Assembly: GCA_965262715.1 (NCBI GenBank)
Contig: OZ253553.1
Span: 1,984,001-2,048,000, forward strand
DNA length: 64,000 nucleotides
DNA from: Bdellovibrionales bacterium
GTDB taxonomy: Bacteria; Bdellovibrionota; Bdellovibrionia; Bdellovibrionales; JAUICD01
Direction of reading: 5' to 3'
The position numbers were made by a program, and so were the translations under genes. Below the pieces are notes generated by a model. It saw nothing but the letters and a program-made list of their open reading frames with translations. It ran no database searches and was not told where the DNA came from. This document shows, piece by piece, positions 22,416 to 63,131 of the stretch (position 1 is its first letter; the number at the start of each line of letters is the position of its first letter).

Positions 22416-23622
22416 CACTCTATCTGAAATATTGGAAAAAATAACATTAGGTGAAGATTCTACTATTGAGTTTAAAGAAAGAATTTCTCACAAAGATAGC
22501 TTAGCAAATGAAATTGCTGCTTTTGCAAATACAAAAGGTGGAGTGATCCTTATTGGTATAGGAGATAACAAAGAAATTATTGGAATTAGTGAAAATGAGT
22601 TAGAATCATTTGAAAAAATAGTGATTGAAATTTGTCGAGATAGCATAGAACCAACTGTCAACATCTATACTGAAAAGCTACTTATTGAAAATAAAAATAT
22701 CTTAAAAATTGAAGTGTCACGTAGTCTTTTTGTCCACAAATCACCTCACGGTTACTTTAGACGACAAGGAAGTAGTAAGAGAGTAATGCCTACAGATCAG
22801 TTAGCTAGACTTATGCAGAGCCGTTCACAAGCACGTATTATAAGTTTTGATGAGCAGGCAGTTCCAAACACAGATGTGAATACATTAAATCAATCTCTAT
22901 ACATGAAATTTATTCCAAATAAAGATGATAAAATCAAATCACTCTATAAACGTCAATTATTACGAAAAGAAAATGGAAGTTACTGTGCTTCAGTTGCTGG
23001 TGTTTTAATGTGTTGTGATACACCTACAGAACATCTTTATCATAGTTTTATTCAAGCCGTTCATTATAGGGAAAAAATAAGAGATGCCAATTATCAAATT
23101 GATGCAAAAGACTTCAAAAACACATTAGATCGTCAAATTATTGAGGCTTTTAAATTTGTAGAAAGATATAATCAAGTTTCTGCAATCAAGATTGTTGGCA
23201 GAGAAGAAAGACCGCAATACAGTATGAAGGCTGTCTTTGAAGCCATTGTTAATGCTGTTGTGCATAGAGATTATTCTAAGCATAGTTCACATATACGTCT
23301 TTTTATGTTTTCTGATAGACTAGAAATTTACTCTCCTGGAGCATTAGCCAATACATTGACTATAGAAAACTTATCTGATAATTTAGCTACACGTAATGAA
23401 CTCTTATCACGTTTACTCTCTGAAATTACTTTAGATGATAACATCAACAAAACAGCCAATAGAAGATATTTTCTAGAACGTCGAGGTGAAGGAGTAGGTA
23501 TTATCCTTAATGAAAGCGAACAATTAAGTGGTAAAAAACCAATCTATGAAATGCTTGGTGAAGAATTAAAACTAACTATTTTTGCTGCCCAATCCCTACA
23601 AGATAACTCATCCCAAGTTTAA
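22408..23622 (+). CDS. AlbA_2 (Schlafen-like) domain plus HATPase_c_4-like ATP-binding protein
   Basis: True start is likely ATG 22408 (GGAG RBS, overlapping the upstream stop); GEDSTIEFKE, AAFANTKGGVILIG, EAIVNAVVHRDY, RLEIYSPG, ERRGEGV. Confidence 0.85.
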   Translation: MYNTLSEILEKITLGEDSTIEFKERISHKDSLANEIAAFANTKGGVILIGIGDNKEIIGISENELESFEKIVIEICRDSIEPTVNIYTEKLLIENKNILKIEVSRSLFVHKSPHGYFRRQGSSKRVMPTDQLARLMQSRSQARIISFDEQAVPNTDVNTLNQSLYMKFIPNKDDKIKSLYKRQLLRKENGSYCASVAGVLMCCDTPTEHLYHSFIQAVHYREKIRDANYQIDAKDFKNTLDRQIIEAFKFVERYNQVSAIKIVGREERPQYSMKAVFEAIVNAVVHRDYSKHSSHIRLFMFSDRLEIYSPGALANTLTIENLSDNLATRNELLSRLLSEITLDDNINKTANRRYFLERRGEGVGIILNESEQLSGKKPIYEMLGEELKLTIFAAQSLQDNSSQV

Positions 23623-23632
23623 AGGTAAAATT

Positions 23633-23880
23633 GGCCTTGTTGCACAAGCAGCAAGTTTAATGAGCTAAGAGATTTGTGAAAGGCATCTTCCATAGGCCTT
23701 AGGCAACCCCCGTGCCTTGTATTTCTATTGTTTTGAGTTTTTATTATGGGATTAAAGTACTTTAAGAGATATTTATTCCCTAAGGCACTGGCCTAGTCCT
23801 ATTTCAGAAGTCTTTCACAAATCTCATTCTTAAATCTTTATGGGATAATATCTTTTAAGAGTTTCATATATTTATTATTT
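23633..23880 (+). mobile_element. Left-end remnant of an IS5-family element, truncated by IS30
   Basis: Starts with the terminal repeat ggccttgttgcacaa, as at 35904/37251; 23669-23825 is homologous to the reverse complement of 37053-37207. Confidence 0.75.
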
Positions 23881-23979
23881 GGTGGATTCAAGTTGCAAGT
23901 GCAACTCCTTGCATAGTTATTTAAAGCGGGTTAGAGGAATACTCTAATCAATCTCTTTAAATAATGAAAGGAGTATTCC

Positions 23980-24933
23980 ATGAGCAATTACACTCATCTA
24001 ACCCAACATGAGAGATACCAGATTTTAGCTTTTTTGCAAAGTGGAAAATCAATAAGTTCAATTGCTACTCAGGTAGGTCGAGATAAAAGCACGATATATA
24101 GGGAGCTGAGTCGTAACAAAGGTTTGCGAGGTTATCGTGCTCAACAAGCCCATGAAAAAGCAGTCGATCGTCTTCAAAACTCTCATAGACATATAAAGAT
24201 AACACAAAAAGTCATTAATAAGCTTGAGAGGTTTCTTTGTGAACGTTGGAGTCCGGAACAAATATCCGGTTTTCTTAAAACAAAAGGTTTTTCTATAAGT
24301 CATGAGAGTATTTATCAACATATTCTGCGAGATAAGAAATCAGGAGGTGATCTCTACAAATTTTTAAGATGTCAGAAGAAACGCAAGAAGCGATATGGTA
24401 CAAGTAGGTTTGATAAAAGGGGTCAGATACAGAATAGAGTGAGTATTGATAAAAGACCTAAGATAGTAGATAAGAGGATTCGCATAGGAGACTGGGAAGG
24501 TGATTTAATGATAGGTAGACATCATAAAGGAGCTTTAGTCACACTGGTAGATAGATGTTCTAAGAAGACGAGGATTGTCAAAATAGAATCTAAGAGTTCT
24601 GAGGCAGTATTTCATGCTATTTCTAAAACTCTTAAAAGAGAGGTTGTTCATACAATGACTTTGGATAATGGTAAAGAGTTTTCGTGTCATGAGAAGATCA
24701 GCGAATATACCGGATGTAAAGTTTATTTTGCTCATCCTTACAGTTCATATCAGAGGGGTTTAAATGAGAACACGAATGGTTTAATCCGTCAGTATTTTCC
24801 AAAGAAGACAGATTTTAGAGAAATCACCTCTAAGGATGTAAAAAAGGTTGAGTTTCTTTTAAATCACCGCCCTCGAAAGAGTTTAGGTTTTCTAACTCCC
24901 AATGAGTTTCATAGACAGAAGATGATTTGTTGA
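23980..24933 (+). CDS. IS30-family transposase
   Basis: YTHLT..ERYQI, WSPEQIS, GDWEGD, TLDNGKEF, RGLNENTNGLIRQYFPK, RPRKSLGF.TP. Confidence 0.97.
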   Translation: MSNYTHLTQHERYQILAFLQSGKSISSIATQVGRDKSTIYRELSRNKGLRGYRAQQAHEKAVDRLQNSHRHIKITQKVINKLERFLCERWSPEQISGFLKTKGFSISHESIYQHILRDKKSGGDLYKFLRCQKKRKKRYGTSRFDKRGQIQNRVSIDKRPKIVDKRIRIGDWEGDLMIGRHHKGALVTLVDRCSKKTRIVKIESKSSEAVFHAISKTLKREVVHTMTLDNGKEFSCHEKISEYTGCKVYFAHPYSSYQRGLNENTNGLIRQYFPKKTDFREITSKDVKKVEFLLNHRPRKSLGFLTPNEFHRQKMIC

Positions 24934-24989
24934 AATCATTATCAATTCAAAATTACTTATCCTATATAACAGCTTTTTGTAAGTAAAAA

Positions 24990-25065
24990 TTGATGTTTAT
25001 AGTAAAGGCAAGTTTTTCCGCAGAGCTTTAGCTCGAGGACTACTTGCCTTTACTATAAACATCAA
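24990..25065. repeat. Perfect 24-bp-arm hairpin in the IS30 3' non-coding region
   Basis: ttgatgtttatagtaaaggcaagt ... acttgcctttactataaacatcaa; the loop holds an inner gagc-ttta-gctc stem. Confidence 0.9.
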
Positions 25066-25233
25066 AGTACATCTCTTCAAATAAAATAATTTACTGTAAT
25101 CTTTCACTATAATTAAAACTTTGTTGGAATATTAATCTTAAAATGATATAACTTTTAAAAATATCTATAACCGCAAAAGTGTTGCACTTGCGATTTGAAG
25201 TTACATTATATAAAACTTATACTGCTAATAGCA

Positions 25234-25725
25234 TTATCTATTATCCCAGATTTCTATAGTAGGATTACCTTCAATACTTTCAATAATTTCATATTCATCT
25301 GGAATACTGAGAAAATAAAGGAGTATCCTCCTATATTCCTCATCTGAAATATCTAATACTGGTGACGGACTATTTAATAATTCAACTAAACTGCTAATCG
25401 ACCATTTTATACCACGTTGTTGAGTAGTTTTTATATTAACAACAATTTGTTCAGCAATTTGAAGTCGAGCTTCTTCATCCAAGTCAAAATGTTCCGTTAT
25501 AGCAGAAAAAACTGCAAAGCTGTTATTGTTTTCTAGTGCGAGGGTTAGTGGCATAACTCCATCTGGACAAGGTGCGTTCATAGCTAATGGACCTTTAAGT
25601 TGAGCTTCTGACTCTACTTGGGGAGGTGTAGCTGACTGCCACCATAAGGGACTACATATATCTGCCCTAGCAAAACTGCCCATCATCATTAACCCTACAA
25701 TTAAAAAATATTTCATAAATTTCAT
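25234..25725 (-). CDS. Exported hypothetical protein, paralog of 25905-26954
   Basis: Likely start MKFMKYF after a GAAGGAG RBS; signal peptide ARA-D; shared N-terminus D.CS.LWWQS...MN.PCP.G..P..LALENN (ankyrin-like). Confidence 0.7.
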   Translation of the reverse strand: MKFMKYFLIVGLMMMGSFARADICSPLWWQSATPPQVESEAQLKGPLAMNAPCPDGVMPLTLALENNNSFAVFSAITEHFDLDEEARLQIAEQIVVNIKTTQQRGIKWSISSLVELLNSPSPVLDISDEEYRRILLYFLSIPDEYEIIESIEGNPTIEIWDNR

Positions 25726-25904
25726 AATTTGCTCTCCTTCTTTCATTTTGACAAACAATATCAATATATATTTCGTAACTTAAAATTACATACTTATTTA
25801 TTATTCTAACAACAACAGTAAAAACCCTTATTTCAAAAAGGATTTTTACCATTATCTTCTACACATAACTTATTCTTAAAAAAAAAAATTTTCCTCATAA
25901 AAGC

Positions 25905-26954
25905 CTATCTATTAGATTGGGCTGTAACAATTTCATAGATGACCAACCTAGTGCGATACCTTTCTAACCTTTGATTTGGCGATTGTGATGACAAAGTATT
26001 ATTATATGCATTATATATCCAATCATCATTATCATATTTGCCAACGCTATTAAAACCAATAAGAAGTGTGCTTATTGTTTCTTTCATATCATCAAAGCTT
26101 ATTCCTACAGGATCCCTATCATCATGGTTTTTAAAATTTATATCAACATCATTGATTAAGAGCCTTTTTAGTATTCCATCAGCATCAGGAACATCAACAG
26201 TGTGTACTACATGATGTGCAGCGAAGTCAGCTCCCTGTGATGGTGAGTCAGGTCGGATATCCCTTGATATTCCATCGAAACTTACTAACAAATCCCCATA
26301 AGCTTGATGAAGCTGCATAGCCGCAATATGTTCAATTTGATGTTGAGTTTCTTCATCTACTTCATACTCATACCCTTTAGGAATATCAAAAAAATGAACT
26401 GGCGCATGTAAAACATAGGTAGGTGTTGATGATCCAGATTCTGCAGCTATCGATTCTACAGTTGATAACAAGTCTCCATAAGCTTGACGGAGCTGCATAC
26501 CTGCAATGTGTTCAATTTGATATCGAATGTTTTCATCTAAACTATCTAGTTCATATTCATCAGGAATATCAATAAACCGGACTGGTACATGCACAACAGA
26601 AGCAGATGATCTTCCAATTATCGATCCCGCATCTGATAACAACCCTTCATAAGCTTGACGAAGCCTTCTATCTGCAAAATGTTGAACTTGATGTCGGGTT
26701 TCTTCATTTAAATCAAAATGTTCCATTATAACATTAAAAGTTAAAGGGTCTTCATTATTTTCTAATGCTAAGATCATTGGCAAAATTCCATTTGGACAAG
26801 GTACGTTCATAGCTAATCTACCTCTAAGTTGAACTTCGAATTCTATCTCAAAATCTTTAACCGACTGCCACCATAAGCCACTACATACATCTGCCCTGGC
26901 AAAACTGCCTATCATCATTAATCCTATAATCAAAAGATATCTCATAAACTTCAT
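25905..26954 (-). CDS. Exported hypothetical protein with three ~55-60 aa internal repeats
   Basis: Repeats LNEETRHQVQHFADRRLRQAYEGLLS / LDENIRYQIEHIAGMQLRQAYGDLLS / VDEETQHQIEHIAAMQLHQAYGDLLV. Confidence 0.7.
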   Translation of the reverse strand: MKFMRYLLIIGLMMIGSFARADVCSGLWWQSVKDFEIEFEVQLRGRLAMNVPCPNGILPMILALENNEDPLTFNVIMEHFDLNEETRHQVQHFADRRLRQAYEGLLSDAGSIIGRSSASVVHVPVRFIDIPDEYELDSLDENIRYQIEHIAGMQLRQAYGDLLSTVESIAAESGSSTPTYVLHAPVHFFDIPKGYEYEVDEETQHQIEHIAAMQLHQAYGDLLVSFDGISRDIRPDSPSQGADFAAHHVVHTVDVPDADGILKRLLINDVDINFKNHDDRDPVGISFDDMKETISTLLIGFNSVGKYDNDDWIYNAYNNTLSSQSPNQRLERYRTRLVIYEIVTAQSNR

Positions 26955-27357
26955 AATTTGCTCTCCTTCTTTCATTTTGCAAATAATACAAAAAATCTAC
27001 AAACCTTGTCAAATAAAAACCTACAAAGCTACCCTTTTTACAAAATTCCTATCACAAACATGAAATAATTACACAAAATAAAGCTTAGCATATGAAATAA
27101 TTACACAAAGCAAAAACTAATTGGATTTACTTAAAGCATTGTTATAAAGATAATAGTTCTTTAATTTTATTTTGAGATCATTCATTTGGAAAAAAGCATT
27201 AACCTTTTAATATCATTGATTTTTAAAAATATTTGTATTAAAAGTCATATTTATTTTTGTAAGATCAATTAAGATATTTTAATTTACTTTCTCTTAGGCT
27301 ATTTGAAGTTAAAACGTGAAAGAATAAGAGTTTATGTCAATTTCGAGTTAAAATGAA

Positions 27358-27506
27358 TAGAAGCCCTCTTATAAAATAATATTTAAGAAGTCGAATTGCA
27401 AAATGCAAAATATTATTTTATAAGATGGCTTCTAGTCAAAATGGACGGACTCTCTTAAAAGCGTGTATACGCACTTTTAAGAGAGTCCGTCCATTTTGAG
27501 TGAGAC
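27358..27506. repeat. Two adjacent long hairpins; the second is a divergent member of the dispersed hairpin family
   Basis: 27358-27434 has 27-bp arms with 1 mismatch. 27436-27499 has perfect 26-bp arms (tcaaaatggacggactctcttaaaag) and ends in the family terminus attttgagtgagac. Confidence 0.85.
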
Positions 27507-27574
27507 AGTCCTTTTATATAGAGCCTGAACTAAAAGGTTGTTTTGAAAATGTGAGCACAGGAAGTAATTTTGAG

Positions 27575-29956
27575 ATGAGTTCTAAGTTCAAGCTGTTTTT
27601 AATATTTTTATGTCTCATTGGTTGCTCTCCAGTATTTGCAAAAGATAAACCAGCAGCATGCGCTACAGCTCTGATGCCTTATGTAGGTTTATTCTTAAAA
27701 CCTAATAACAGCGAATTACAACAAGCAGTCTCTGTCTTATTAGAACAATCAGAAGAAGTAGGTGACCTTTTATTAGACCTCAATCAAAATCCCTCGAAAA
27801 GTGAGGTTTTAAATAATCATGTTGACAGGATCTATAAATTAAATCCTCAATCTGCTTTTATTTTAACTGCTGCTATTTTAAAAGCTTCATTAACAGATGT
27901 GAATAAAGAGATAATCAAAAAAACGTGGGATGAATTTATAAGCAGTTCAAAGGCTTCTGAAGAAGTGCAAAGAGCCATAAATCAAGCTTTTAAAAGACAA
28001 CCAACAAATAATGAAAGCACACCTCATAATCCTTATATAGATTCCCTTTCTTTGCGAACATTACTTTTACTAATAGAAGATCCAAATTATCAAAGTATAT
28101 TGGTATTGAAAGATAAAAATGAAACCATAAGTGGATATACTTCGTACAAACCTGGTGATTCTGAAGTTTTAAGTTATGTGCATTTGAATAACGCTTACAT
28201 CTTTTTTGAAACCTATAAACGTGTCTATGTTTTTCAAGTTCAACCTGAGAGTCATTTATCAACCAATGTTCTTGTATTTAATAAAAAGCAACCTAATCTC
28301 ATAGCTAATAACCTATACCATGAATATTTTGAAGAAATACAACATTATTTTAATTCTTCATATACCGAAATGAATGAAGAACTTATAGATAATGTTCTAG
28401 ATAATTTAGATATGATAACAACCACTGTTAAAAAATCAACCTTTTTTGAAAGATTTATTTACCGTCTTACAAGAATTCGAGATGCTTTTGAAATATCATC
28501 TCATTCAATCATCGACAATGCTATTACTAATTATAATGCTACAAAGAATGACTTTCAAGTTTCAACACTTTTAAAGATAGCTCATTATTTAAGAGTCAAA
28601 TTGTCAATTCTATTAAGTGATGAAGACTTGGTCCCTTATGCTCACATTGATCAAAGTAGACCTCCTTTATCAGATGAGTATATATATGAAGTAGAAAGAA
28701 ATATCAAAATAAAACTTAGAGATGCAATCAGAAAGTCTGACCTTACTTTATCAGATTTGGAAAATAAAAGTGGAGTATCTCTATCAATCCTTAACAAGAT
28801 ATTAGCAAGCTCATTTATTCCAAAATATTTAGTAATGAAAAATATTACAGATGTTTTAGGGATTGATATTAATGAATTTTTAATAAAAATTGTAAATGAT
28901 GTTCTAAAAAATATGCTACAACATCACTTTAACAACAACCAAGATCAACAAAATGAAGCAGCTATCTTAGAGCGTATTGGAAATCGTATTAAACAAGCGA
29001 TGTTTTTGGCAGGGTTTGATTTAAAAACAAGATTAACAGAAGTATTAGGAGTCCGCATAGATAATCTAGGTAAAGTGAATCCGCGATTTAGAGTTCTATT
29101 AACAACATCTTATGTAACAGGAATAAACCTATCAGTTCTAGTTGGTGATGCAAACTTAGAAGATCAAATTGACCCAAGCCTTGCAAGACACACTGAGATG
29201 CCAGAAGACTATTTTAGAAAAGCAAGGATCCTTATAATCTATTATATCAAAAAAAGAATGGTAGAATTAAATCTCTCCATAAGAGATCTTGCCTCTTTAA
29301 ATAGCGGGCTTAAACAAGATACAATACGCACATTGTTTAATGGAAGGCAAACCCCAGGCTATCTTTTACTTTCTAAAATAGCGGATACTTTAAAAACCAC
29401 ACTATCTGATCTACTACAAAATTTAGAAGAAGATATTGAACAATTTAACAGTTTAGATTTAAATATTGAAGTTCCTGCCTCTAATAGAAACAATATAACG
29501 GAGAGCGCTCTAAACGAACTTAATCGTTGGAGACAACGTATAATTCAAGCTGTAGAATTGAGTCGTATACCATCAAAGAGATTAGACAAAGAATTCAAGA
29601 TAAGACTCAAAACTTTCAGAGAAAAGAGACTAGCCACCCTTTTTAAAGCGGCTCATCTTGCAGGAATTACTGTATCAGAGCTTTTAGGTCATAGAGATCT
29701 TTCACAATTAATAAGTCCTCATCGTGATATAAAAGCAATAAGACCATTATCCGACTCTCAAATTAAAAGAAAGGTACATCAGTTTAGTCAAAATATTACA
29801 ATTCGAATGGAGAATGTTTATGGACATCCTTTACCTCCACATATTAGAAATCACATATCTACAGTATATGACAGCCTACTGGTTTCATCTTCTCGTATAA
29901 TACGATTATCTGAAGAGCTGAATGTAGATCCTGTGCATTTTTTTGCAGATTTATAA
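27575..29956 (+). CDS. Signal-peptide-bearing protein with multiple tandem XRE/Cro-like HTH modules
   Basis: Likely start MSSKFKLFLIFLCLIGCSPVFA. HTH-like repeats include LTLSDLENKSGVSLSILNKIL...ITDVLGIDINEFL and LSIRDLASLNSGLKQDTIRTLFNGRQTPGYLLLSKIADTLKTTLSDLL, plus further degenerate copies. Confidence 0.7.
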   Translation: MSSKFKLFLIFLCLIGCSPVFAKDKPAACATALMPYVGLFLKPNNSELQQAVSVLLEQSEEVGDLLLDLNQNPSKSEVLNNHVDRIYKLNPQSAFILTAAILKASLTDVNKEIIKKTWDEFISSSKASEEVQRAINQAFKRQPTNNESTPHNPYIDSLSLRTLLLLIEDPNYQSILVLKDKNETISGYTSYKPGDSEVLSYVHLNNAYIFFETYKRVYVFQVQPESHLSTNVLVFNKKQPNLIANNLYHEYFEEIQHYFNSSYTEMNEELIDNVLDNLDMITTTVKKSTFFERFIYRLTRIRDAFEISSHSIIDNAITNYNATKNDFQVSTLLKIAHYLRVKLSILLSDEDLVPYAHIDQSRPPLSDEYIYEVERNIKIKLRDAIRKSDLTLSDLENKSGVSLSILNKILASSFIPKYLVMKNITDVLGIDINEFLIKIVNDVLKNMLQHHFNNNQDQQNEAAILERIGNRIKQAMFLAGFDLKTRLTEVLGVRIDNLGKVNPRFRVLLTTSYVTGINLSVLVGDANLEDQIDPSLARHTEMPEDYFRKARILIIYYIKKRMVELNLSIRDLASLNSGLKQDTIRTLFNGRQTPGYLLLSKIADTLKTTLSDLLQNLEEDIEQFNSLDLNIEVPASNRNNITESALNELNRWRQRIIQAVELSRIPSKRLDKEFKIRLKTFREKRLATLFKAAHLAGITVSELLGHRDLSQLISPHRDIKAIRPLSDSQIKRKVHQFSQNITIRMENVYGHPLPPHIRNHISTVYDSLLVSSSRIIRLSEELNVDPVHFFADL

Positions 29957-29964
29957 CTCCTCCT

Positions 29965-30349
29965 GTTCCACTAAAAATAAACCAACCTCTGGTTGTTTTT
30001 GGGCAATGAGCATGACGGCTAACGCCCTCCTAAAATGCTCATTGCCTCAAAAATCCGTTTATTTTTAGTAATGAGAATTTTTTCTTTTTTTATACGATGT
30101 TAAGGAAAATGTTGCTGTTTACAAAGCAGCCTGACGATTCACATCGTCAGCAAATAGCTAACTGCCTAAAAAGCTTGAGGTGTTTTAGTAGGAAGAATCT
30201 CTTTATTCTCTTATATCATGTTAAGGAAAATATTGTTGTTTACAAATCAGCCTGAAGGTTTACATCTTCAAGAAAATGCTGACTGTCTCAAATATCCATT
30301 TATTTTTAGTAATGAGGGTCTCTTCTTTTTTTACAAAATGTTAAGGAAA
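29965..30349 (-). repeat. Tandem array of three hairpin-element units (29965-30108, 30109-30229, 30230-30349)
   Basis: atgttaaggaaa recurs with 121- and 120-bp spacing; each unit has a different but base-paired internal stem. Confidence 0.88.
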
Positions 30350-30614
30350 TCTTTCCTAATAGTTTTTTATTTTCTAAAAAATGTGTATTCCTTTCATTTT
30401 GTTAAAATGCATCTAAGCAAAGCAGTCATATTTTTACCTTAAAAACAGTTTAAAATAGGTTTTAAAGCAATCTTAAAAAATAATTCAGCCTAATCTTATT
30501 AAAAACTGCTTGTCATAAACTTAAGTTTAATGATAGAAAGTATCAATTGTTTTTGTGTATATCAAATTATAAAATATAAAATTTGGAATAGTTGTTGTAA
30601 GAGCGTACTAAATC

Positions 30615-31633
30615 ATGAGTCGAAATCAGGTATTAATTTATATTTTGTCTTTTTTGACAATTTTTATCATTACAACATTTAGTAGCTTAGGCTTATCTCG
30701 CCGCGCTAAACTTCCTAAATCATTAGAAGAAGAAAGGGTTGCCAGATTACTTTATGAACACATACTTCAAGATAACTTAGATGGATTTACGGAGATTTTA
30801 AATAATTACCCACAATATATCAATATTGCATATTATCACCCAAATTATGATGACTATCTTACACCTTTACAATCTGCTGCTCTATTAGGGAGAGATGATT
30901 TTATAGATGAGTTATTATTAAAAAGAAAAATCGATCTATTTTCCAGAACAACAAATAAAGGTAATTCTATTCTTCACCTCTCCAGCATACCTCATATTAC
31001 AAAAAGACTTATAGACCTTACTTTCAAGCTTGAAGCCCGCAATGCTCAACTTATGACTCCTCTACTTGCACAAGCCTACAAAACAATCCTTAACAGAGGA
31101 GTTATACATACCTTACTAGAAGCTGGTGCTAACCCGGATGCAAGGACTAATATTTCAGATTAACAGCCTTACATATTTTATTTAAGCCACATCATGCACA
31201 TAGCCATCGAGAAGACCTATTAGCTATTTTAGGAGATCTTTTAGAATATGGTGCAAGCGTAGATGCTACAACCAAACAAGGTGCAACTGCTTTACACTTT
31301 GCTGCAGGAAACAATGATGCTGAAGCTATAAGGATTCTTGTCAATAAAGCAAATCAAATAGGAATTAAAGATTCTTTTATTAATACACAAAACTCATCCG
31401 GCAATACTCCACTTTCTATAGCTTATAAACATCAATCTAAAGAAGCCATCACCCAACTGCTAAAACTAGGAGCAAATCCTTTCTTAAAAAATAATGATGG
31501 TGTATCAGTTAATGGAGATGCCCGCCTTCGAAGCAGTGAAGGAGAAGTTTTTGATTTTAGTAAATTTGTCTTAGATGAAATAAGACGATATATTAAACCA
31601 TCAGTCATTTGTGCCCAACCACTGACGACCTAA
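30615..31633 (+). pseudogene. Ankyrin array copy 1 (frameshift near 31158)
   Basis: One base is missing relative to paralogs (tcagattaaca vs tcaggattaaca/tcagaattaaca). The downstream frame continues LTALHILFK...VICAQPLTT* to 31633. Confidence 0.85.
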
Positions 31634-32112
31634 CGCGAATACTTAAACAAAAGTAAAGTTTTGTATTTTGCAAAATAAAAGTCCTCATCATTGTTTTTTT
31701 ATTCTGAAAAATCCTTTCAGAAAAAAGTGTAATCTATGTATACAGAATGGACCCTTTTACTTTCAGGCAAGCGGCTAAACAGTGTCCGGAAACTGATCCA
31801 AAGAACCGATTCCGGACTACCTCAATTACCGGAATGCTAGATAAAATAAATCCTCATTTTAGATTTCATTTCTAAAAAATGTGTATTCCTTTCATTTTGT
31901 TAAAATGCATCTAAGCAAAGCAGTCATATTTTTACCTTAAAAACAGTTTAAAATAGGTTTTAAAGCAATCTTAAAAAATAATTCAGCCTAATCTTATTAA
32001 AAACTGCTTGTCATAAACTTAAGTTTAATGATAGAAAGTATCAATTGTTTTTGTGTATATCAAATTATAAAATATAAAATTTGGAATAGTTGTTGTAAGA
32101 GTGTACTAAATC

Positions 32113-33147
32113 ATGAATCGAAATCAGGTATCAATTTATATTTTATCTTTTTTGACAATTTTTATTACTACAACATTTAGCACTTATAGTTTAGGCTTAT
32201 ATCGTGCTAAACTTCCTGAGTCGCCAAAAGAAAAAAGACAAGCCACATTACTTCATATACAAATACTTCAAAATAACTTGGATAAATTTATGAGGATTTT
32301 AGATAAATACCCACAATATATTAATGCTGTATACTATTATCCAAAATATGAGGATTATATAACACTTTTACAATCTGCTGCTATATTCGGGAGAGATGAG
32401 TTTATAGATGAGTTATTGAAAAGAAAAATCGATCTATTTCCCACAACAACGAATAAAGGTAATTCTATTCTTCACCTCTCCAGCATACCTCGTATTACAG
32501 AAAGATTCATAGACCTTGCTTTCAGGCTTGAAGCTCGTAATGATCAATTAATGACTCCTCTACTTGCACAGGCTTACAAAGACACCCTTAACAAAGAAGT
32601 TATACATACCTTATTAGAAGCTGGTGCTGACCCAGATGCGAAAACAGATATTGCAGGATTGACAGCCTTACATATTTTATTTAAGCCACATCATGCAAGC
32701 AGCCATCGGGAAGATCTATTAGCTATTTTAGAAGATCTTTTAGATCATGGCGCAACGGTATATGCTAAAACCAAACAAGGCGCAACTGCTTTACACTTTG
32801 CCGCAAAGAACAATGATGTTGAAGCTATAAGGATTCTTGTCGATAGAGCCAATCAAAGAAGAATTAAACACCTCTTCATTAATATGAGGAACTCAGATGG
32901 CGATACTCCACTTTCTATAGCTTATAAACATCAATCTAAAGAAGCCACCACCGAACTGCTAAAACTAGGAGCAAATCCTTTATTAAAAAATCATAGTGGT
33001 GTATCAGTCAATGGAGATGCCTACCTCCTCTTTCGAAGCAATCAAAGAAATAGCTTTGATTTTAGTAAATTTGTCTTAGATGAAATAGCAAAATATTTTA
33101 CACCCTCAGATCGTTGTGCCCAGCCACTAATGTCTGTTGGTTTATAA
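32113..33147 (+). CDS. Exported ankyrin-repeat protein, array copy 2
   Basis: Signal peptide; GNSILHL, LLEAGADPD, GATALHFAA, GDTPLSIA, LLKLGANP. Confidence 0.92.
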   Translation: MNRNQVSIYILSFLTIFITTTFSTYSLGLYRAKLPESPKEKRQATLLHIQILQNNLDKFMRILDKYPQYINAVYYYPKYEDYITLLQSAAIFGRDEFIDELLKRKIDLFPTTTNKGNSILHLSSIPRITERFIDLAFRLEARNDQLMTPLLAQAYKDTLNKEVIHTLLEAGADPDAKTDIAGLTALHILFKPHHASSHREDLLAILEDLLDHGATVYAKTKQGATALHFAAKNNDVEAIRILVDRANQRRIKHLFINMRNSDGDTPLSIAYKHQSKEATTELLKLGANPLLKNHSGVSVNGDAYLLFRSNQRNSFDFSKFVLDEIAKYFTPSDRCAQPLMSVGL

Positions 33148-33165
33148 TTAGAAAGTTGGATTCGA

Positions 33166-33220
33166 TTTTTAAAAAGTATCTATAAATCCAAAAGTGTTGC
33201 ACTTGCTATTTGAGCCTATA
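33166..33220 (+). mobile_element. Solo IS30-like right end after ankyrin copy 2
   Basis: tttttaaaaagtatctataaatccaaaagtgttgcacttgctatttgag versus the IS30 end cttttaaaaatatctataaccgcaaaagtgttgcacttgcgatttgaag (25152-25200). Confidence 0.8.
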
Positions 33221-33392
33221 TCTTAAAAACAATTTAAAATAGGTTTTAAAGCATTTTTAAAGGACAACTCAATCTAATTTTATTAAAAATTGCTTGTCAT
33301 AAACTCAGTTTAATGATAAATGATATCAATTATTCTTGTGATATCACATCATAAAACTTATAGAGGGATTACTATTTGAGAGTGTAAGAGTT

Positions 33393-34439
33393 ATGAATCG
33401 AAATCAGGTACTAACTTATATTTTATCTTTTTTGATAATGTTTATTACTACAACATTTAGCATTTATAGCTTATCTCAATTTCCTCAGCTTCCTAGATCA
33501 ATGGAAGAAAGAAAGCTCGCCGAATTACTCCATAAACGAATATCTCAAAATAATCTTGATGAATTTGTAAGGATTTTAGATGCGTACCCAAAATATATCA
33601 ATATTATAATTATACAATTTCATCCAGAATACACACGCACTCTTACTCCATTACAACATTCCACTATGTTAGCGAGAAATGAATTTATAGATGAGTTGTT
33701 GAAAAGAGAAGCTGATCCAACTTTAACAACTTTATCCGAAGATAATTCTCTTCTTCATCTTGCTTCTTCACCTCGCACAGCAAAAAAACTCATAGATTTA
33801 GGCCTTGACCTTGAGGCTACTAATTTTCAAGGTATGACACCACTGCTTGTAAAAGTTTTCAAAAGAACATTAGATAGAGAAGTTATACACACTCTACTAG
33901 AAGCTGGTGCTAATCCAAATGTAAGAACCGATATTTCAAGGATGACACCTTTACATATCTTATTTAAGCCACATCATATATTTCATACAGCCAGCCACGA
34001 AGAAGATTTATTAGTTATTTTAAAAGACCTCTTAGATCATGGCGCAAGAGTGGATGCTACAACTAAACAAAAAGAAACTCCTCTACATTTTGCAGCAAAA
34101 GCTAATAATGTTGAAGCTATAAGGATTCTTGTCGATAGAGCCAATCAAAGAAGAATTAAACACCTCTTCATTAATATGAGGAACTCAGATGGCGATACTC
34201 CACTTTCTATAGCTTATAAACATAAATCTAGAGAAGCTATTACTGAGCTTTTAAAACTAGGATCAAATCCTTTTGTAAAAAATAACTTCCTAGTATCAGT
34301 TAATGGAGATGCCCACACTCAAGAATTTAGAGGTAGTGGAGAAACTTTAGATTTTAGTAAGTTTGTTTTAGATGAAATAACAAAATATTTTACACCCTCA
34401 GATCGTTGTGGCCGATCACTAACGTCTGTTAGGTCTTAA
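33393..34439 (+). CDS. Exported ankyrin-repeat protein, array copy 3 (most divergent N-terminal half)
   Basis: Signal peptide and ankyrin motifs as in the paralogs. Confidence 0.92.
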   Translation: MNRNQVLTYILSFLIMFITTTFSIYSLSQFPQLPRSMEERKLAELLHKRISQNNLDEFVRILDAYPKYINIIIIQFHPEYTRTLTPLQHSTMLARNEFIDELLKREADPTLTTLSEDNSLLHLASSPRTAKKLIDLGLDLEATNFQGMTPLLVKVFKRTLDREVIHTLLEAGANPNVRTDISRMTPLHILFKPHHIFHTASHEEDLLVILKDLLDHGARVDATTKQKETPLHFAAKANNVEAIRILVDRANQRRIKHLFINMRNSDGDTPLSIAYKHKSREAITELLKLGSNPFVKNNFLVSVNGDAHTQEFRGSGETLDFSKFVLDEITKYFTPSDRCGRSLTSVRS

Positions 34440-34456
34440 TTAGAAAGACGGATTCG

Positions 34457-34512
34457 ACTTCTAAAAAAGCATCTATAAATCTAAACTGTTGCACTTGCTA
34501 TTTGAACTTATA
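34457..34512 (+). mobile_element. Solo IS30-like right end after ankyrin copy 3
   Basis: atctataaatctaaactgttgcacttgctatttgaac. Confidence 0.75.
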
Positions 34513-34864
34513 ATATTTACGAAAGAGTTTTTCAAAAATTCTCAAAATTCTTTATTTTGTAAATGTATCTTGAAAAAGATCCATTTTGGAGATGTAGATT
34601 ATAGTTTACCAGTTTCTTATTTAATAGACCGCCAGATAAAATTTTTATTTTTAAGATAGTCTCCAGCCTCAAAATAACTATATTTTTATCTTAAAAACGA
34701 TTTAAACTTGGTCTTAAAGCATATTTTAAGGAATTATCCATGATGATATTTTATTAAAAAATTTGTTTGTCATAAACTCAGTTTAATGATAAATGATATC
34801 AATTATTTTCTGTATATATCAAATCATAAAGTTTGGAATAGTTATTGTAAGAGTGTACTAAATC

Positions 34865-35902
34865 ATGAATCGAAATCAGGTATCAATTTATATTTTATCT
34901 TTTTTAACAATATTTATTACTACAACATTCAGCACTTATAGTTTAGGCTTATATCGTGCTAAACTTCCTGAGTCGCCAAAAGAAAGAAACCAAGCCACAT
35001 TACTTCATAAACAAATACTTCAAAATAACCTCGATGCATTTATAGAGTTTGTAGAGATTTTAGATAATTATCCACAATATATTAATACTGCATACTATTA
35101 CCAAAAATATGATGATTATCTTACACCTTTACAATCTGCTGCTCTATTAGGGAGAGATGATTTTATAGATGAGTTATTGAGAAGAAAAGTCAATCTATTT
35201 CCCACAACAACGAATAAGGGTAATTCTATTCTTCACCTTTCCAACAAACCTCATATTACAAAAAGATTTATAGACCTTGCTTTCAATCTTGAAGCCCACA
35301 ATGATCAATTAATGACTCCTCTACTTGCACAGGCTTACAAAAGAACCCTTAACAAAGAAGTTATACATACCTTATTAGAAGCTGGTGCTGACCCAGATGC
35401 GAGAACCGATACTTCAGAATTGACAGCCTTACATATGTTATTTAAACTACATCATGCAAGCAGCCATCGGGAAGATCTATTAGCTATTTTAAAAGATCTT
35501 TTAGATCATGGTGCAAAAGCATATGCTACAACCAATAAAGGCGCAACTGCTTTACACTTTGCCGCAGGAAACAATGATGTTGAAGCTATAAGAATTCTTG
35601 TCGATAGAGCAAATCAAAGAAGAATTAAACACCTCTTCATTAATATGAGGAACTCAGATGGCGACACTCCACTTTCTATAGCTTATAAACATCAATCTAA
35701 AGAAGCCACCACCGAACTGCTAAAACTAGGAGCAAATCCTTTATTAAAAAATAATAGTGGTGTATCAGTCAATGGAGATGCCCACCTTCGAAGCAGTGAA
35801 AGAAAGATTTTTGATTTTAGTAAATTTGTCTTAGATGAAATAGCAAAATATTTTACACCCTCAGATCGTTGTGCCAAGCCACTAATGTCTGTTGGTTTAT
35901 AA
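34865..35902 (+). CDS. Exported ankyrin-repeat protein, array copy 4
   Basis: Signal peptide and ankyrin motifs as in the paralogs. Confidence 0.92.
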   Translation: MNRNQVSIYILSFLTIFITTTFSTYSLGLYRAKLPESPKERNQATLLHKQILQNNLDAFIEFVEILDNYPQYINTAYYYQKYDDYLTPLQSAALLGRDDFIDELLRRKVNLFPTTTNKGNSILHLSNKPHITKRFIDLAFNLEAHNDQLMTPLLAQAYKRTLNKEVIHTLLEAGADPDARTDTSELTALHMLFKLHHASSHREDLLAILKDLLDHGAKAYATTNKGATALHFAAGNNDVEAIRILVDRANQRRIKHLFINMRNSDGDTPLSIAYKHQSKEATTELLKLGANPLLKNNSGVSVNGDAHLRSSERKIFDFSKFVLDEIAKYFTPSDRCAKPLMSVGL

Positions 35903-35903
35903 T

Positions 35904-37251
35904 GGCCTTGTTGCACAAAGATTTAAATAGTTTTTATTTTATTTATTTTTTAAGTAAGATTGTCATTTAATATTTTTTTATCAAGCTGAAAGAGAAGAAG
36001 GCACAATCATCTGATTAAGGATTTTACATTTAATAAACACTTCATTTGCTTGACGATGAAATTCTCTAGAAGATAATTTATCACCTAATAAAGTTTTAAA
36101 TCTATACATAGCTGTTTCTGATATAGACCTCCTGTGATATTTATGTTTTTTTTTCCACTTCTTTCTACCCATCTTCTTGATTTCTCTAATATAAGTATCT
36201 CTAAGAAGCGGCGATCCTCGACAATTTCCATGCCTCTTAATCACAGCATTCTTTCTAGGTGGAGCAACCAATTTTATACTTCTATCACTTGTAAACTGAT
36301 AACAATTCTTACAGTCATAAGCCCCATCAACTGAAACTTGGCCTATCTCATCTTCATATCCTGTCAATAACTCTTCAAAAACCTCATTATCCTTTACAGA
36401 ATTATCACTCAAAACAGATGCCTTAATCTGGGAATTTGACTCATCTACCGCTAAATGTAGCTTCTTCCAGGTCCTTCTCTTAGAATACCCATGCTGACGG
36501 ACTTTCCACTCTCCCTCCCCATAAACTTTAAGACCTGTGGAATCAATGACAATATGAGGACTCTTGTGAGAAGATAGCTTTCTTTCTAGTTTTACTGATA
36601 ACTTCTGTAATCTTCTGCAAAGAGTTGTATAATTAGGTATTTCTATATCAAGACACATAAGTTCAACTAGGGATTTAGCAAAACCTTCTGTAGATCGCAA
36701 TTTTAAACCAAATATGAATCTTAATATATTAAGAGTTTCAATAGCTTTATCAGAGTAAACTTGTTGACCCCCTTGCTTTGAAGAACATTTTGCATACCAA
36801 GATTTGACGATATCTGCTGAAAACCAAAAAGTGATTTGACCTCTATTGACTAGAGACTTATTATAAAGACTCCAGTTTATTTTTTTATTTTTACCCATCT
36901 CTAGCTCCTTCTGATTTAGTGATTGTGAAAGTTGGGGATGGGTAAATTTTATAATCACTAAAAACAAAAAATCAAAGTAATAGATATCAAACTCAGAAAA
37001 AATAGAGCTTAGGCAAAAAACTTCATATATGGTGCATAATAAACATCTGTAGGAGAATTATGGCAGGCTTCTGAAATAGGACTAGGCCAGTGCCTTAGGA
37101 GAAAAATATCTATAAAGCATTCGATACTATAATAAAATCTTAAAATAATAGCAATAAAAGGTACAGAGGCCCTCTAAGGCCTATGGAAGATGCCTGACTT
37201 AATTCTCTAACTTGTATACACATATTCCATAAATCTTTGTGCAACAAGACC
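35904..37251 (-). mobile_element. IS5-family (IS903-like) insertion sequence
   Basis: 21-bp terminal inverted repeats ggccttgttgcacaaagattt and aaatctttgtgcaacaagacc (1 mismatch); no target duplication visible. Confidence 0.92.
35981..36898 (-). CDS. IS5-family transposase
   Basis: NWSLYNKSLVNRG, IDSTGLKVYGEGEWKVRQHG, WKKLHLAVD, VDGAYD, YHRRSISETAMYRFK; start MGKNKK after an AAGGAG RBS. Confidence 0.96.
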   Translation of the reverse strand: MGKNKKINWSLYNKSLVNRGQITFWFSADIVKSWYAKCSSKQGGQQVYSDKAIETLNILRFIFGLKLRSTEGFAKSLVELMCLDIEIPNYTTLCRRLQKLSVKLERKLSSHKSPHIVIDSTGLKVYGEGEWKVRQHGYSKRRTWKKLHLAVDESNSQIKASVLSDNSVKDNEVFEELLTGYEDEIGQVSVDGAYDCKNCYQFTSDRSIKLVAPPRKNAVIKRHGNCRGSPLLRDTYIREIKKMGRKKWKKKHKYHRRSISETAMYRFKTLLGDKLSSREFHRQANEVFIKCKILNQMIVPSSLSA

Positions 37252-37525
37252 GATGTAGATTATAGTTTACCAGTTTCTTATTTAATAGACCGCCAGATAA
37301 AATTTTTATTTTTAAGATAGTCTCCAGCCTCAAAATAACTATATTTTTATCTTAAAAACGATTTAAACTTGGTCTTAAAGCATATTTTAAGGAATTATCC
37401 ATGATGATATTTTATTAAAAAATTTGTTTGTCATAAACTCAGTTTAATGATAAATGATATCAATTATTTTCTGTATATATCAAATCATAAAGTTTGGAAT
37501 AGTTATTGTAAGAGTGTACTAAATC

Positions 37526-38553
37526 ATGAATCGAAATCAGGTATCAATTTATATTTTATCTTTTTTAACAATATTTATTACTACAACATTCAGCACTTAT
37601 AGTTTAGGCTTATATCGTGCTAAACTTCCTGAGTCGCCAAAAGAAAAAAGGCTTGCCAAATTACTTTATGAACAAATACTTCAAGATAACTTAGATGTAT
37701 TTGTGAAGATTTTAGATAACTACCCACAATATATCAATATTGCATATTATCATCCAAATTATGATGACCATCTTACACCTTTACAATCTGCTGCTCTATT
37801 AGGCAAAGATAATTTTATAGATGAGTTATTGAGAAGAAAAGTCGATCTATTTCCCACAACAACGAATAAGGGTAATTCTATTCTTCACCTCTCCAACATA
37901 CCTCGTATTACAAAAAGATTTATAGACCTTACTTTCAAGCTTGAAGCTCGTAATGATCAATCTATGACTCCTCTACTTGCACAGACTCACAAAACAATCC
38001 CTAACAAAGAAGTTATACATACCTTACTAGAAGCTGGTGCTAACCCAGATGCGAAAACCAGTTTTTCAGAATTAACAGCCTTACATATTTTATTTAAGCT
38101 ACGTTATGCAAGTAGCCATCGGGAATACCTATTAGCTATTTTAGAAGATCTTCTAGATCATGGTGCAACAGTAGATGCTACAACCAAACGAGGTGCAACT
38201 GCTTTACACTTCGCCGCAGGAAACAATGATGTTAGAGCTATAAGAATTCTTGTCAATAGAGCAGATCAAATAGGAATTAAAGATTCTTTTATCAATACAC
38301 AAAACTTATTTGGCGATACTCCACTTTCTAAGGCTTATAACTATCAATCTAGAGAAGCTATTACTGAGCTTTTAAAACTAGGAGCAAATCCTTCTTAAAA
38401 AATAATCTAGGTGTCTCAGTCAATGGAGATGCCCACCTTCGAAGCAGTGAAGGAGAAGTTTTTGAGTTTAGTAAGTTTGTCTCAGATGAAATAATACGAC
38501 ATTTTAAACCATCAGATCGTTGTGGCCAATCACTAACGTCTGTTAGGTCTTAA
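37526..38553 (+). pseudogene. Ankyrin array copy 5 (frameshift near 38391 removes the C-terminal ~50 aa)
   Basis: aatccttcttaaaa versus aatcctttcttaaaa in copy 1; the shifted frame continues ...VSVNGDAHLRSS...DRCGQSLTSVRS*. Confidence 0.85.
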
Positions 38554-38570
38554 TTAGAAAGACGGATTCG

Positions 38571-38626
38571 ACTTCTAAAAAAGCATCTATAAATCTAAAC
38601 TGTTGCACTTGCTATTTGAACCTATA
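38571..38626 (+). mobile_element. Solo IS30-like right end after ankyrin copy 5
   Basis: Near-identical to 34457-34512. Confidence 0.75.
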
Positions 38627-38807
38627 TCTTAAAAACAATTTAAAATAGGTTTTAAAGCATTTTAAGGGCTAAGGAATTATTCAGAGTGATATTTTATTAA
38701 AAAAATCCTTGTCATAAATTGATTTTAATTAATATTAATGGTGTTTTGTAGGGTGATAATAGGCCAAATTCACTTACCGATAGGCGATTACTTAAGAGTG
38801 CTGAATT

Positions 38808-39842
38808 ATGATTCGAAATCAGGTATCAATTTATATTTTGTCTTTTTTGACAATTTTTATCATTACAACATTTAGTAGCTTAGTCTTATCTCGCCGCGCT
38901 AAACCTCCTAAGTCGCCAGAAGAAGAAAGGCTTGCAGGCTTACTTCAGGAACACATACTTCAAGATAACTTAGATGGATTTGTGGATGTTTTAGATAATT
39001 ATCCAGAATATATTAATATTGCATCCTATTATCTACAATATGATGATTATCTTACACCTTTACAATCTGCTGCTCTATTAGAAAGAGATGAGTTTATAGA
39101 TGAGTTATTATTAAAAAGAAAAATCGATTTATTTTCCAAAACAACGAACAAAGGTAATACTATTCTTCACCTTTCCAGTATACCTCGTATTACAAAAAGA
39201 TTTATAGACATGGCTTTCAAACTTGAAGTTCGCAATGCTCAATTTATGACTCCTCTACTTGCACAAGCCGACACAGCAATCCTTAACAAAGAAGTTATAC
39301 ATGTCTTATTAGAAGCTGGTGCTGATCCAAATGCGAGAACCAATATCTCAGGATTAACACCTTTACATATTTTATTTAAGCCATCAGACCATGCAAGCAG
39401 TGATCAACAATCTTTATTAGCTATTTTAGAAGATCTTTTACATCATGGCGCAACAGTAAATGCTACAACCAATCGAAATGAAACTCCTCTACATTTTGCA
39501 GCAAGAGCTAATAATGGTGTGGCTATAAGAATTCTTGTCAATAGAGCAAGTCAACTGGAAATTAAAAATTTTATTAATATGAGAGACTCAGATGGTAATA
39601 CTCCACTTTCTATAGCTTATAAAAATCAATCTAGAGAGGCTGTCACTGAACTTCTAAAACTAGGCGCAAATCCTTTTTTGAAAAACAACCTCCGCATATC
39701 AGTTAATGGAGATGCCCACATTCAAAGTGGTAGAAGTAGTGGAGAAACTTTACATTTTAGTAAATTTGTCTTAGGTGAAATAGCAAAATATCTTAAGCCA
39801 TCAGCTCGTTGCGCTCAACCACTAATACCTGTTAGGCCTTAA
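38808..39842 (+). CDS. Exported ankyrin-repeat protein, array copy 6
   Basis: Signal peptide and ankyrin motifs as in the paralogs. Confidence 0.92.
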   Translation: MIRNQVSIYILSFLTIFIITTFSSLVLSRRAKPPKSPEEERLAGLLQEHILQDNLDGFVDVLDNYPEYINIASYYLQYDDYLTPLQSAALLERDEFIDELLLKRKIDLFSKTTNKGNTILHLSSIPRITKRFIDMAFKLEVRNAQFMTPLLAQADTAILNKEVIHVLLEAGADPNARTNISGLTPLHILFKPSDHASSDQQSLLAILEDLLHHGATVNATTNRNETPLHFAARANNGVAIRILVNRASQLEIKNFINMRDSDGNTPLSIAYKNQSREAVTELLKLGANPFLKNNLRISVNGDAHIQSGRSSGETLHFSKFVLGEIAKYLKPSARCAQPLIPVRP

Positions 39843-39859
39843 TTAGAAAGTTGGATTCG

Positions 39860-39913
39860 ATTTTTAAAAAGCATCTATAAATCTAAACTGTTGCACTTGC
39901 TATTTGAACTTAC
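39860..39913 (+). mobile_element. Solo IS30-like right end after ankyrin copy 6, marking the end of the array
   Basis: atctataaatctaaactgttgcacttgctatttgaacttac. Confidence 0.75.
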
Positions 39914-39947
39914 GGATTAAAAAAAAGTATGAATGATATCTTTATCA

Positions 39948-56272: not shown

Positions 56273-56376
56273 TTTTATTTCTCCTGTTAAATCAGAGTTA
56301 GAAGGTCTATTTTAAAAAAAATATTATTCAATTATAAGAAGTAATTTGTAAGTTACTTCAATATAACTTATAAAAC

Positions 56377-63118: not shown

Positions 63119-63131
63119 AGTTATTAGTTCT

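What the first reader, a model, noticed from the sequence alone, without database searches (positions are those of the whole stretch)
30615..39913. Ankyrin gene array in which four of six genes are followed by a solo IS30-like right end
Seen: about 20 bp after the stop of copies 2, 3, 5 and 6 lies a ~55-bp block (ctataaatc(c/t)aaa..gttgcacttgctatttga) matching the right terminal repeat region of the intact IS30 at 25152-25205. Similarity between these blocks ends at or near the IS terminus for copies 3 and 6, and different upstream regions follow. Copy 4's downstream region is replaced by IS5; copy 1 lacks the block. Established: IS30 transposases act on their terminal repeats and on end-end junctions. 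Inference: [promoter-ankyrin-IS30 end] may be a unit amplified or rearranged by IS30 transposase in trans, i.e. a domesticated IS end driving expansion of an effector array.
Basis: partly seen in the sequence, partly recalled or inferred. Interest (0 to 1): 0.8.

Follow-up and report, generated by a model that had tools for sequence, protein, structure and literature searches.

The report
IS30 scar copied through ankyrin array
Four of six tandem ankyrin genes are followed by the same decayed 55-base stump of a jumping-gene end, a kind of scar that is common in this genome; it was likely re-joined to new DNA once by the transposase and likely copied by ordinary recombination, rather than being a domesticated gene-amplifying device.

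Summary
Observation confirmed: about 55-bp IS30 right-end remnants end at 33220, 34512, 38626 and 39914, behind copies 2, 3, 5 and 6, and share one left junction. They are not ankyrin-specific. The genome holds 24 full IS30s and 43 unpaired right ends; 16 of 40 (array counted once) are 45-61 bp; 0 of 76 other ankyrin-like ORFs carry one. A remnant elsewhere shows the route: insertion upstream of a paralog, then microhomology deletion. The array ends are among the most decayed, and the genes are recombination mosaics with lineages shared with relatives. Of five junctions, one lacks IS30 and one is marked by IS5. Copy 6's flank may be a relic of the copy-2/5 flank, so repeated use is unproven. 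Verdict: one ancestral scar, likely re-joined once, spread by recombination; domestication not shown. Relatives' DNA and reads could not be examined. The scan's look-ups found no earlier record of it on other DNA.

The parts
23881..25205 (+). Intact IS30-family element (1325 bp; transposase ORF 23980-24933), one of 24 full copies in the genome
   Evidence: Pfam HTH_38 + rve; 25-bp imperfect IRs; family pairs and 3-bp target duplications in 17 of 24
30615..31633 (+). Ankyrin copy 1, frameshifted near 31160; no IS30 end behind it
   Evidence: its N-terminal ORF is 96-97% identical to intact proteins P0005/P0051 of relatives
32113..33147 (+). Ankyrin copy 2 (344 aa, hydrophobic N-terminus)
33151..33170 (+). 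Weak hairpin between stop and remnant, shared by copies 2, 3, 5 and 6 (terminator-like, or a relic of the IS30 left tip)
   Evidence: fold -4.2 to -6.3 kcal/mol, not better than shuffles; 8-9 of 11 match to the left tip, against at most 8 in 22 other remnants
33167..33220 (+). IS30 right-end remnant behind copy 2, joined at its tip to the conserved ankyrin upstream region
33393..34439 (+). Ankyrin copy 3 (348 aa), the most divergent; its 3' end through the remnant is identical to copy 5 over 93 bp
34457..34512 (+). IS30 right-end remnant behind copy 3, joined at its tip to unique spacer X
34513..34688 (+). Spacer X (34513-34590, single copy) and Y (34591-34688, repeated behind IS5)
34689..34691 (+). 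Empty palindromic site upstream of copy 4, homologous to the site joined to the remnant upstream of copies 3 and 6 (also at 30437, 31935, 37350)
   Evidence: IS30 target score in the top 2% of intergenic positions, rank 12 of 331 locally
34865..35902 (+). Ankyrin copy 4 (345 aa)
35904..37251 (-). IS5-family element without target duplication at the copy 4/5 junction; the DNA after it repeats the upstream region and 5' end of copy 4
   Evidence: Pfam DDE_Tnp_1_5/DDE_Tnp_1; 9-bp duplication at 2 of 4 full copies examined, none here; c4=c5 identical run of 297 bp plus 98 bp upstream
37526..38553 (+). Ankyrin copy 5, frameshifted near 38395 (ORF ends 38398; homologous stop 38553)
38571..38626 (+). 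IS30 right-end remnant behind copy 5, same flank as behind copy 2
38808..39842 (+). Ankyrin copy 6 (344 aa)
39862..39914 (+). IS30 right-end remnant behind copy 6, the only one whose last four bases match the majority tip; 33 bp from the convergent dapA stop
   Evidence: flank resembles the copy-2/5 flank (13 of 20)

Best explanation
The four blocks are copies of what is likely one old IS30 insertion in a spacer of the ankyrin cluster that likely collapsed by deletion to its last ~55 bp, was likely re-joined at its tip to a new target at least once by IS30 transposase, and was likely spread and homogenised by homologous recombination between the paralogues. Shown: the remnants, their shared left junction, tip-flush flanks, target-like flanks, mosaic genes, and the abundance of such remnants in the genome. 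Inferred: (1) insertion and imprecise loss of the IS body at an AT-rich microhomology, as at G000:2110436; (2) a visiting IS30 inserting next to the orphan right end, forming an active IRR-IRL junction that attacked a nearby AT-rich site, which gives either a spacer deletion or an unequal-sister duplication, with the visitor later excised; (3) unequal crossing-over and conversion copying the spacer along with the genes. The end is a passenger and occasional hinge in an array that expands and shuffles anyway, not a dedicated amplifier.
For: Remnants are ordinary here: 43 unpaired right ends, 16 of 40 being 45-61 bp, and a 47-bp one in relative G004. At G000:2110436 a 51-bp remnant sits upstream of one member of another paralogue array, and comparison with its sister gene shows a shared AT-rich stretch at the inner junction. 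Flanks change at the tip and fit the family target profile built from 48 flanks (combined p about 0.013 if three are independent). The upstream site is empty in copies 1, 2, 4 and 5. Three independent IS30 insertions in 9.3 kb have Poisson p about 0.002. Recombination tracts: c3=c5 93 bp through the remnant, c2=c3 116 bp, c4=c5 297 bp, c1=c2 167 bp. The remnants are 84-98% alike while gene dS is 0.12-0.59, which fits late spread or homogenisation. Paralogue lineages cross genomes (c3 with P0009, 100/100; copy 1 with P0005/P0051), and more distant lineages hold their own 2-5 paralogues. 68 of 77 tandem paralogue groups in the genome have no IS30 end. PMC9333248: IS30 inserts next to IRs, including at the region with truncated IS30B (last 184 bp), and the junction drives hot-spot-targeted deletions. 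PMC5821093: ISApl1 leaves 42- or 90-bp right-end remnants.
Against: The copy-6 tip differs in its last two bases from copies 2, 3 and 5, which may mean a second source element. The inner 18 bp of the IR are invariant in all four while 11 of 38 flanking columns vary (Fisher p=0.011), more than neutral decay predicts. Copy 1, without the end, is 96-97% identical to its counterpart in relatives, while copies 2-6 reach only 73-80%; this fits faster turnover of the end-bearing part, though edge position would also explain it. The target profile is weak (52% of true flanks fall in the top 10%). No IR-IR junction was found in the assembly. The order of events cannot be read from one genome.
Confidence: 0.55

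Rival explanations
1. Purely passive: one scar co-duplicated by unequal crossing-over, and the second flank arose by an ordinary deletion that happened to end at the IS tip.
For: The copy-6 flank resembles the copy-2/5 flank (13 of 20; 0 of 100 other flanks match copy 2's as well), so only one tip-flush event is needed. A 2-bp microhomology exists at that joint. Tips are decayed. Recombination is pervasive.
Against: The joint is both flush with the tip (roughly 3% by chance for a ~170-bp spacer; my estimate) and at a site in the top 2-6% of target scores.
Confidence: 0.15
2. Several events of full-length IS30 (local hops or adjacent deletions made in cis) created the flanks first; the collapsed form arose afterwards and was imposed on all copies by recombination.
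For: Two tip variants among the four. Local hopping followed by recombination between direct IS copies is the main IS deletion route in E. coli (PMC5009759 passages, where IS30 itself did not move). All flanks are target-like.
Against: It needs independent same-orientation insertions (p about 0.002 for three) or conversion of every full copy to one collapse point. No IS30 or remnant lies upstream of the first unit, where the site is empty.
Confidence: 0.17
3. One reading: [upstream region-ankyrin-IS30 end] is a retained unit that transposase supplied in trans repeatedly duplicates or shuffles, and selection keeps the end for that role.
For: The geometry fits two nested one-ended duplications: the best self-match is the two-gene unit 31926-34510 versus 37341-39912, ending at the tips. 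Inner IR invariant. Non-coding remnants are more alike than the adjacent coding DNA in 5 of 6 pairs. It is the largest of 77 tandem groups and the only one with repeated ends. Copies 2-6 differ strongly from relatives' paralogues.
Against: Copies 3 and 6 are not sisters in the protein tree. The tips, which must be cut, carry 4 variable sites in 7. There is no association with other ankyrin genes. Copy 1-2 and copy 4-5 junctions formed without IS30. The latest duplication is marked by IS5.
Confidence: 0.13

Closest known systems
Truncated IS30B of E. coli K-12 and the IS30 IR-targeting / dimer-dissolution network (PMC9333248)
   Same: An orphan right end of an IS30-family element stays on the chromosome; IS30 inserts next to IRs, and the junction drives tip-flush rearrangements at AT-rich near-palindromic sites.
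   Different: The remnant here is about 55 bp rather than 184 bp, is decayed, and is repeated four times in a paralogue array; this family makes 3-bp rather than 2-bp duplications. The passages read describe deletions, inversions and fusions, not gene-array growth. No activity was tested here.
ISApl1-mcr-1 single-ended derivatives keeping 42 or 90 bp of the downstream right end (PMC5821093)
   Same: IS30-family right-end remnant with a whole IRR directly behind a host gene, left by imprecise loss of the IS; proposed to remain usable.
   Different: Those have an intact upstream ISApl1 and putative target duplications around the unit. Here there is no upstream IS or left end, no duplication around any unit, and no copy elsewhere in the genome.
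IS-assisted tandem duplication followed by recombination in paralogue arrays (general; IS-anchored deletions in PMC5009759)
   Same: IS ends supply novel joints; homologous recombination changes copy number and makes mosaics.
   Different: The joint is marked by a short remnant rather than a whole IS; an IS5 marks another joint in the same array.
Two-ended non-autonomous IS derivatives with cargo (MITE/MIC/tIS; recalled)
   Same: Host gene next to IS-derived end sequence, transposase available in trans.
   Different: No left end upstream of any copy; units are not dispersed.

Membership tests
IS30 family (intact element 23881-25205) | Single DDE transposase with N-terminal HTH and rve core | tested here: met
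   Pfam HTH_38 E 1e-13, rve E 2e-8
IS30 family (intact element 23881-25205) | Imperfect terminal IRs of about 25 bp and short (2-3 bp, recalled range) target duplication | tested here: met
   IRs differ at 6 of 25; 17 of 24 full copies have a 3-bp duplication
Truncated IS30 right-end remnant (IS30B / ISApl1-IRR type) | Whole IRR plus short subterminal stretch, IS body absent | tested here: met
   53-56 bp alignable; 2-5 mismatches in the 25-bp IR to the best full copy
Truncated IS30 right-end remnant (IS30B / ISApl1-IRR type) | Outer flank is a target-like site starting at the tip | tested here: met
   Top 11%, 19% and 1.5% of intergenic half-sites; true flanks have median 7%. The profile is weak.
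Truncated IS30 right-end remnant (IS30B / ISApl1-IRR type) | Still bound and used by transposase (IR-targeting) | not testable with these tools
   Needs a binding or transposition assay; no IR-IR junction in the assembly
Single-ended composite transposon (ISApl1-mcr-1 type) | Intact IS or left end upstream of the cargo gene | tested here: not met
   No IS30 end between 25205 and 33167; upstream sites empty. The intact element 5.4 kb upstream is separated by three unrelated ORFs.
Single-ended composite transposon (ISApl1-mcr-1 type) | Unit found at several unrelated sites, flanked by target duplications | tested here: not met
   The gene family (over 35% identity) occurs at this locus only
Two-ended non-autonomous IS30 derivative (MITE/cassette) | Functional left and right ends bracketing the unit | tested here: not met
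   At most an 11-bp left-tip-like stretch inside the post-stop hairpin (8-9 of 11), without the inner IR and without a matching duplication
Domesticated IS end | Specific association with the gene class | tested here: not met
   0 of 76 non-array ankyrin-like ORFs versus 13 of 2262 other ORFs (home-made ORF set and ankyrin profile)
Domesticated IS end | Purifying selection on the end | tested here: inconclusive
   Inner 18 bp invariant (p=0.011) but tip variable; few independent lineages because of conversion
Domesticated IS end | Conserved behind paralogues in related genomes | not testable with these tools
   Relatives with this family were reachable as proteins only
Integron-like cassette array | Tyrosine integrase nearby and attC-type site after each gene | tested here: not met
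   No tyrosine recombinase family among 34 of the window's 44 ORFs scanned; the block is IS30-derived; no attC model was run

The most novel reading that the evidence does not exclude
The orphan right end is a reusable landing pad kept behind secreted ankyrin genes: passing IS30 copies dock next to it, fire duplication-and-collapse cycles that shuffle the array, and leave again, so a 55-bp scar works as a selected diversity hinge for host-interaction proteins.
Probability: 0.13. Interest if true: 0.65.

Novelty: new member of a known kind. Interest (0 to 1): 0.27.

Why it matters
As read here it is a tidy natural example of IS30-family debris being re-used once and then carried through a shuffling gene array, behaviour already shown in the laboratory for IS30 and inferred for ISApl1. 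It would matter more if relatives show that the end is retained and repeatedly seeds duplications: that would extend IS30 IR-targeting from deletions to selected gene-family growth. The genome-wide peak of 45-61-bp right-end remnants is a side observation that may help define the minimal end or a preferred abortive-transposition break.

Tried and rejected
Ankyrin enrichment: none (0 of 76). Portable-promoter role: short solo right ends face a gene start in 21 of 34 cases against 57% for random intergenic points, and within 150 bp in 9 of 34 against 22%; no consensus sigma-70 promoter starts in the four ends. Collapsed two-tip mini-IS: 9 of 11 match is suggestive, but no matching duplication was seen and a terminator-like hairpin explains it equally. 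Rfam: 0 matches in 23500-35800. DNA of relatives: 30 relatives, 4 family genomes and 383 order genomes held no member of this family; genome and metagenome contig scans returned only generic ankyrins at 24-39% identity. The same-genus genome G001 (90% complete) has no synteny around dapA and no match to this IS30. G004 ankyrins near its remnants are unrelated, 28-31%. Sequencing runs holding the stretch were listed (11 holders, 6 studies, no RNA holder listed), but no reads were laid, so copy-number variants, circles and the two frameshifts remain unchecked. Three primary IS30 papers (IR organisation, subterminal sequences, IR targeting) were not held. Literature searches showed no paper on a solo IS30 end repeated in a paralogue array; this library lacks most subscription papers. 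Earlier-finding look-ups by sequence and words returned nothing.
Full report
Observation. The window is G000:C1:1984001-2048000 of a 2.94-Mb single-contig genome; earlier scan notes call it an uncultured Bdellovibrionota bacterium (not tested here). Six same-strand ankyrin paralogues lie at 30615-39842. They have a hydrophobic N-terminus, dS 0.12-0.59 and dN/dS 0.40-0.61 among the four intact copies. Copies 1 and 5 are frameshifted. 'Effector' is an inference; no function was tested. The intact IS30 spans 23881-25205. Right-end remnants of 53-56 bp end at 33220, 34512, 38626 and 39914, all with the same left junction behind a weak post-stop hairpin.

How special are the remnants? A genome-wide scan found 107 IS30 ends (67 right, 40 left); the reversed-genome control had 0 hits at up to 5 mismatches. 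They form 24 full elements, 17 with a 3-bp target duplication, and leave 43 unpaired right and 16 unpaired left ends. Counting the array once, 16 of 40 unpaired right ends are 45-61 bp long. With a home-made ORF set and ankyrin profile, 0 of 76 ankyrin-like ORFs outside the array have a solo right end within 300 bp behind the stop, against 13 of 2262 other ORFs. Of 77 tandem paralogue groups (this automatic set includes some split genes and IS pairs), 9 have any IS30 end and only this one has the same remnant repeated behind its genes. At G000:2110436 a 51-bp remnant lies upstream of one member of another paralogue array; its sister gene shows the empty site and an AT-rich stretch shared with the IS interior at the inner junction. 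That is the signature of insertion followed by microhomology deletion. Relative G004 has a 47-bp remnant ending at the same place.

The breakpoints. Pairwise homology ends at or within 7 bp of the tip for all pairs except copies 2 and 5, which share their flank. Against a profile from the 48 flanks of full elements, the flanks score in the top 11% (copies 2/5), 19% (copy 3) and 1.5% (copy 6) of intergenic DNA; true flanks have a median of 7% (combined p about 0.013 if independent). The site joined to the remnant upstream of copies 3 and 6 is present empty upstream of copies 1, 2, 4 and 5, scoring in the top 2-6%. Against my first reading of three separate joints: the copy-6 flank matches the copy-2/5 flank at 13 of 20 positions, reached by 0.9% of pairs of other flanks and by 0 of 100 flanks against copy 2's (a gapped local score was not exceptional, 17 of 100). 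It may be the relic of a lost seventh unit. So one original insertion flank plus at least one new tip-flush joint is the minimum. Whether that joint was a duplication or a spacer deletion cannot be told.

Age and recombination. The four ends score 36-40 of 50 against the best full copy, 4 of the 8 lowest among 34 unpaired ends, with 2-5 mismatches in the IR. Four of the outer 7 columns vary, 0 of the inner 18 and 7 of 31 subterminal columns (p=0.011). The tip, which must be cleaved (PMC3299598 passages on bipartite ends), is the most decayed part; the binding part is unchanged. This is the best hint of selection, but few lineages are independent. The genes are mosaics, with identical runs c1=c2 167 bp, c2=c3 116 bp, c3=c5 93 bp through the remnant and c4=c5 297 bp. 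The remnants are 84-98% alike, more than the last 90 coding bases in 5 of 6 pairs, which fits late spread, homogenisation or selection. The copy 1-2 junction has no IS30. The copy 4-5 junction is an IS5 without target duplication (2 of 4 full copies examined have 9 bp), followed by an exact repeat of copy 4's upstream region, so the most recent visible duplication is IS5-marked.

Relatives. In the tree copy 3 groups with P0009 (100/100) rather than with copy 6, and more distant lineages form their own multi-paralogue clades. Copy 1 is 96-97% identical to P0005/P0051 while copies 2-6 reach 73-80% (the search lists 90% cluster representatives, so members may be missing). The family therefore expands in several lineages and turns over fast.

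Mechanism. From PMC9333248 (abstract, whole-text parts 1-2 of 8, section 11, first part of the discussion and passages): IS30 inserts either at near-palindromic hot spots or next to its IRs; IR-targeting makes an active IRL-IRR junction, also in the region of the truncated IS30B; the junction attacks hot spots to give deletions and inversions, or excises the element. From PMC5821093 (abstract, passages, part 4 of 6 of the main section): ISApl1 is lost at 1-4-bp joints and sometimes leaves 42 or 90 bp with the whole IRR, possibly still usable. PMC9330008 (passages) states that adjacent deletions begin precisely at a terminus. PMC5009759 (passages) documents local hopping plus recombination. The IEE preprint 10.1101/2023.06.07.543989 was seen as abstract and outline only. 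No supplements were read. Applied here by inference: an old IS30 insertion collapsed to a right-end stump; a later IS30 docked beside it and the junction joined the stump to a new AT-rich site; unequal crossing-over and conversion copied it with the genes. I put this at 0.55, independent full-length events at 0.17, pure passivity at 0.15 and a selected, repeatedly firing unit at 0.13.

Verdict. Real feature, known ingredients: a new member of a known kind. It works like IS30B or the ISApl1 IRR remnants. It is not a single-ended transposon or a two-ended cassette by the tests above, and domestication is not shown. Eight literature searches showed no description of this exact arrangement, within a library that lacks most subscription papers. 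Interest 0.27.

Noticed in passing
G000 genome-wide: Unpaired IS30 right ends outnumber left ends 40 to 16 (array counted once; binomial p about 0.002) and peak at 45-61 bp (16 of 40); 5 of 16 left remnants are 44-47 bp or close. No promoter-side enrichment was found. The cause is unexplained.
   Followed up: partly
window 24990-25065: Long near-perfect hairpin in the IS30 3' non-coding region (-44.3 kcal/mol, z -10.8); no Rfam match.
   Followed up: partly
window 29963-30357: Two to three copies of a ~150-bp dispersed repeat with hundreds of genome-wide matches, often in periodic tandem runs; probably the repeat family described in earlier scan notes.
   Followed up: no
G000:C1:1479910-1482503 and 738257-741358: Transposase genes of about 550 aa flanked by exact direct repeats of 337 bp and 576 bp; resembles the long variable duplications recalled for the IS1634 family. 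One such repeat copies a 55-bp IS30 right end.
   Followed up: partly
G000:C1:2108062-2113525: Another tandem array of secreted-looking paralogues with a 51-bp IS30 remnant upstream of one member and a full IS30 at its edge.
   Followed up: yes
G000:C1:728779-736400 and 1719324-1731390: Duplicated type IV pilin-like gene clusters, with old IS30 right-end remnants at their edges.
   Followed up: no
window 27500-29956: 818-aa ORF with several Cro/C1-type HTH domains directly upstream of the array.
   Followed up: no
window 25234-26975: Pair of paralogous secreted-looking ORFs with no Pfam match, abutting the right end of the intact IS30.
   Followed up: no
window 11806-16263, 19770-23622, 54245-63818: Defence-like genes: SF1 helicase with a REase_MTES domain, SMC/AAA ATPase next to a Schlafen AlbA_2 protein, and UvrD, SIR2 and type III restriction genes in a row.
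   Followed up: no
window about 23630-23850: By eye, a fragment resembling the IS5 end region lies just left of the intact IS30.
   Followed up: no
G000:C1:1187362: Hybrid remnant: right-end interior with a left-end tip, suggesting exchange between the two IRs.
   Followed up: no
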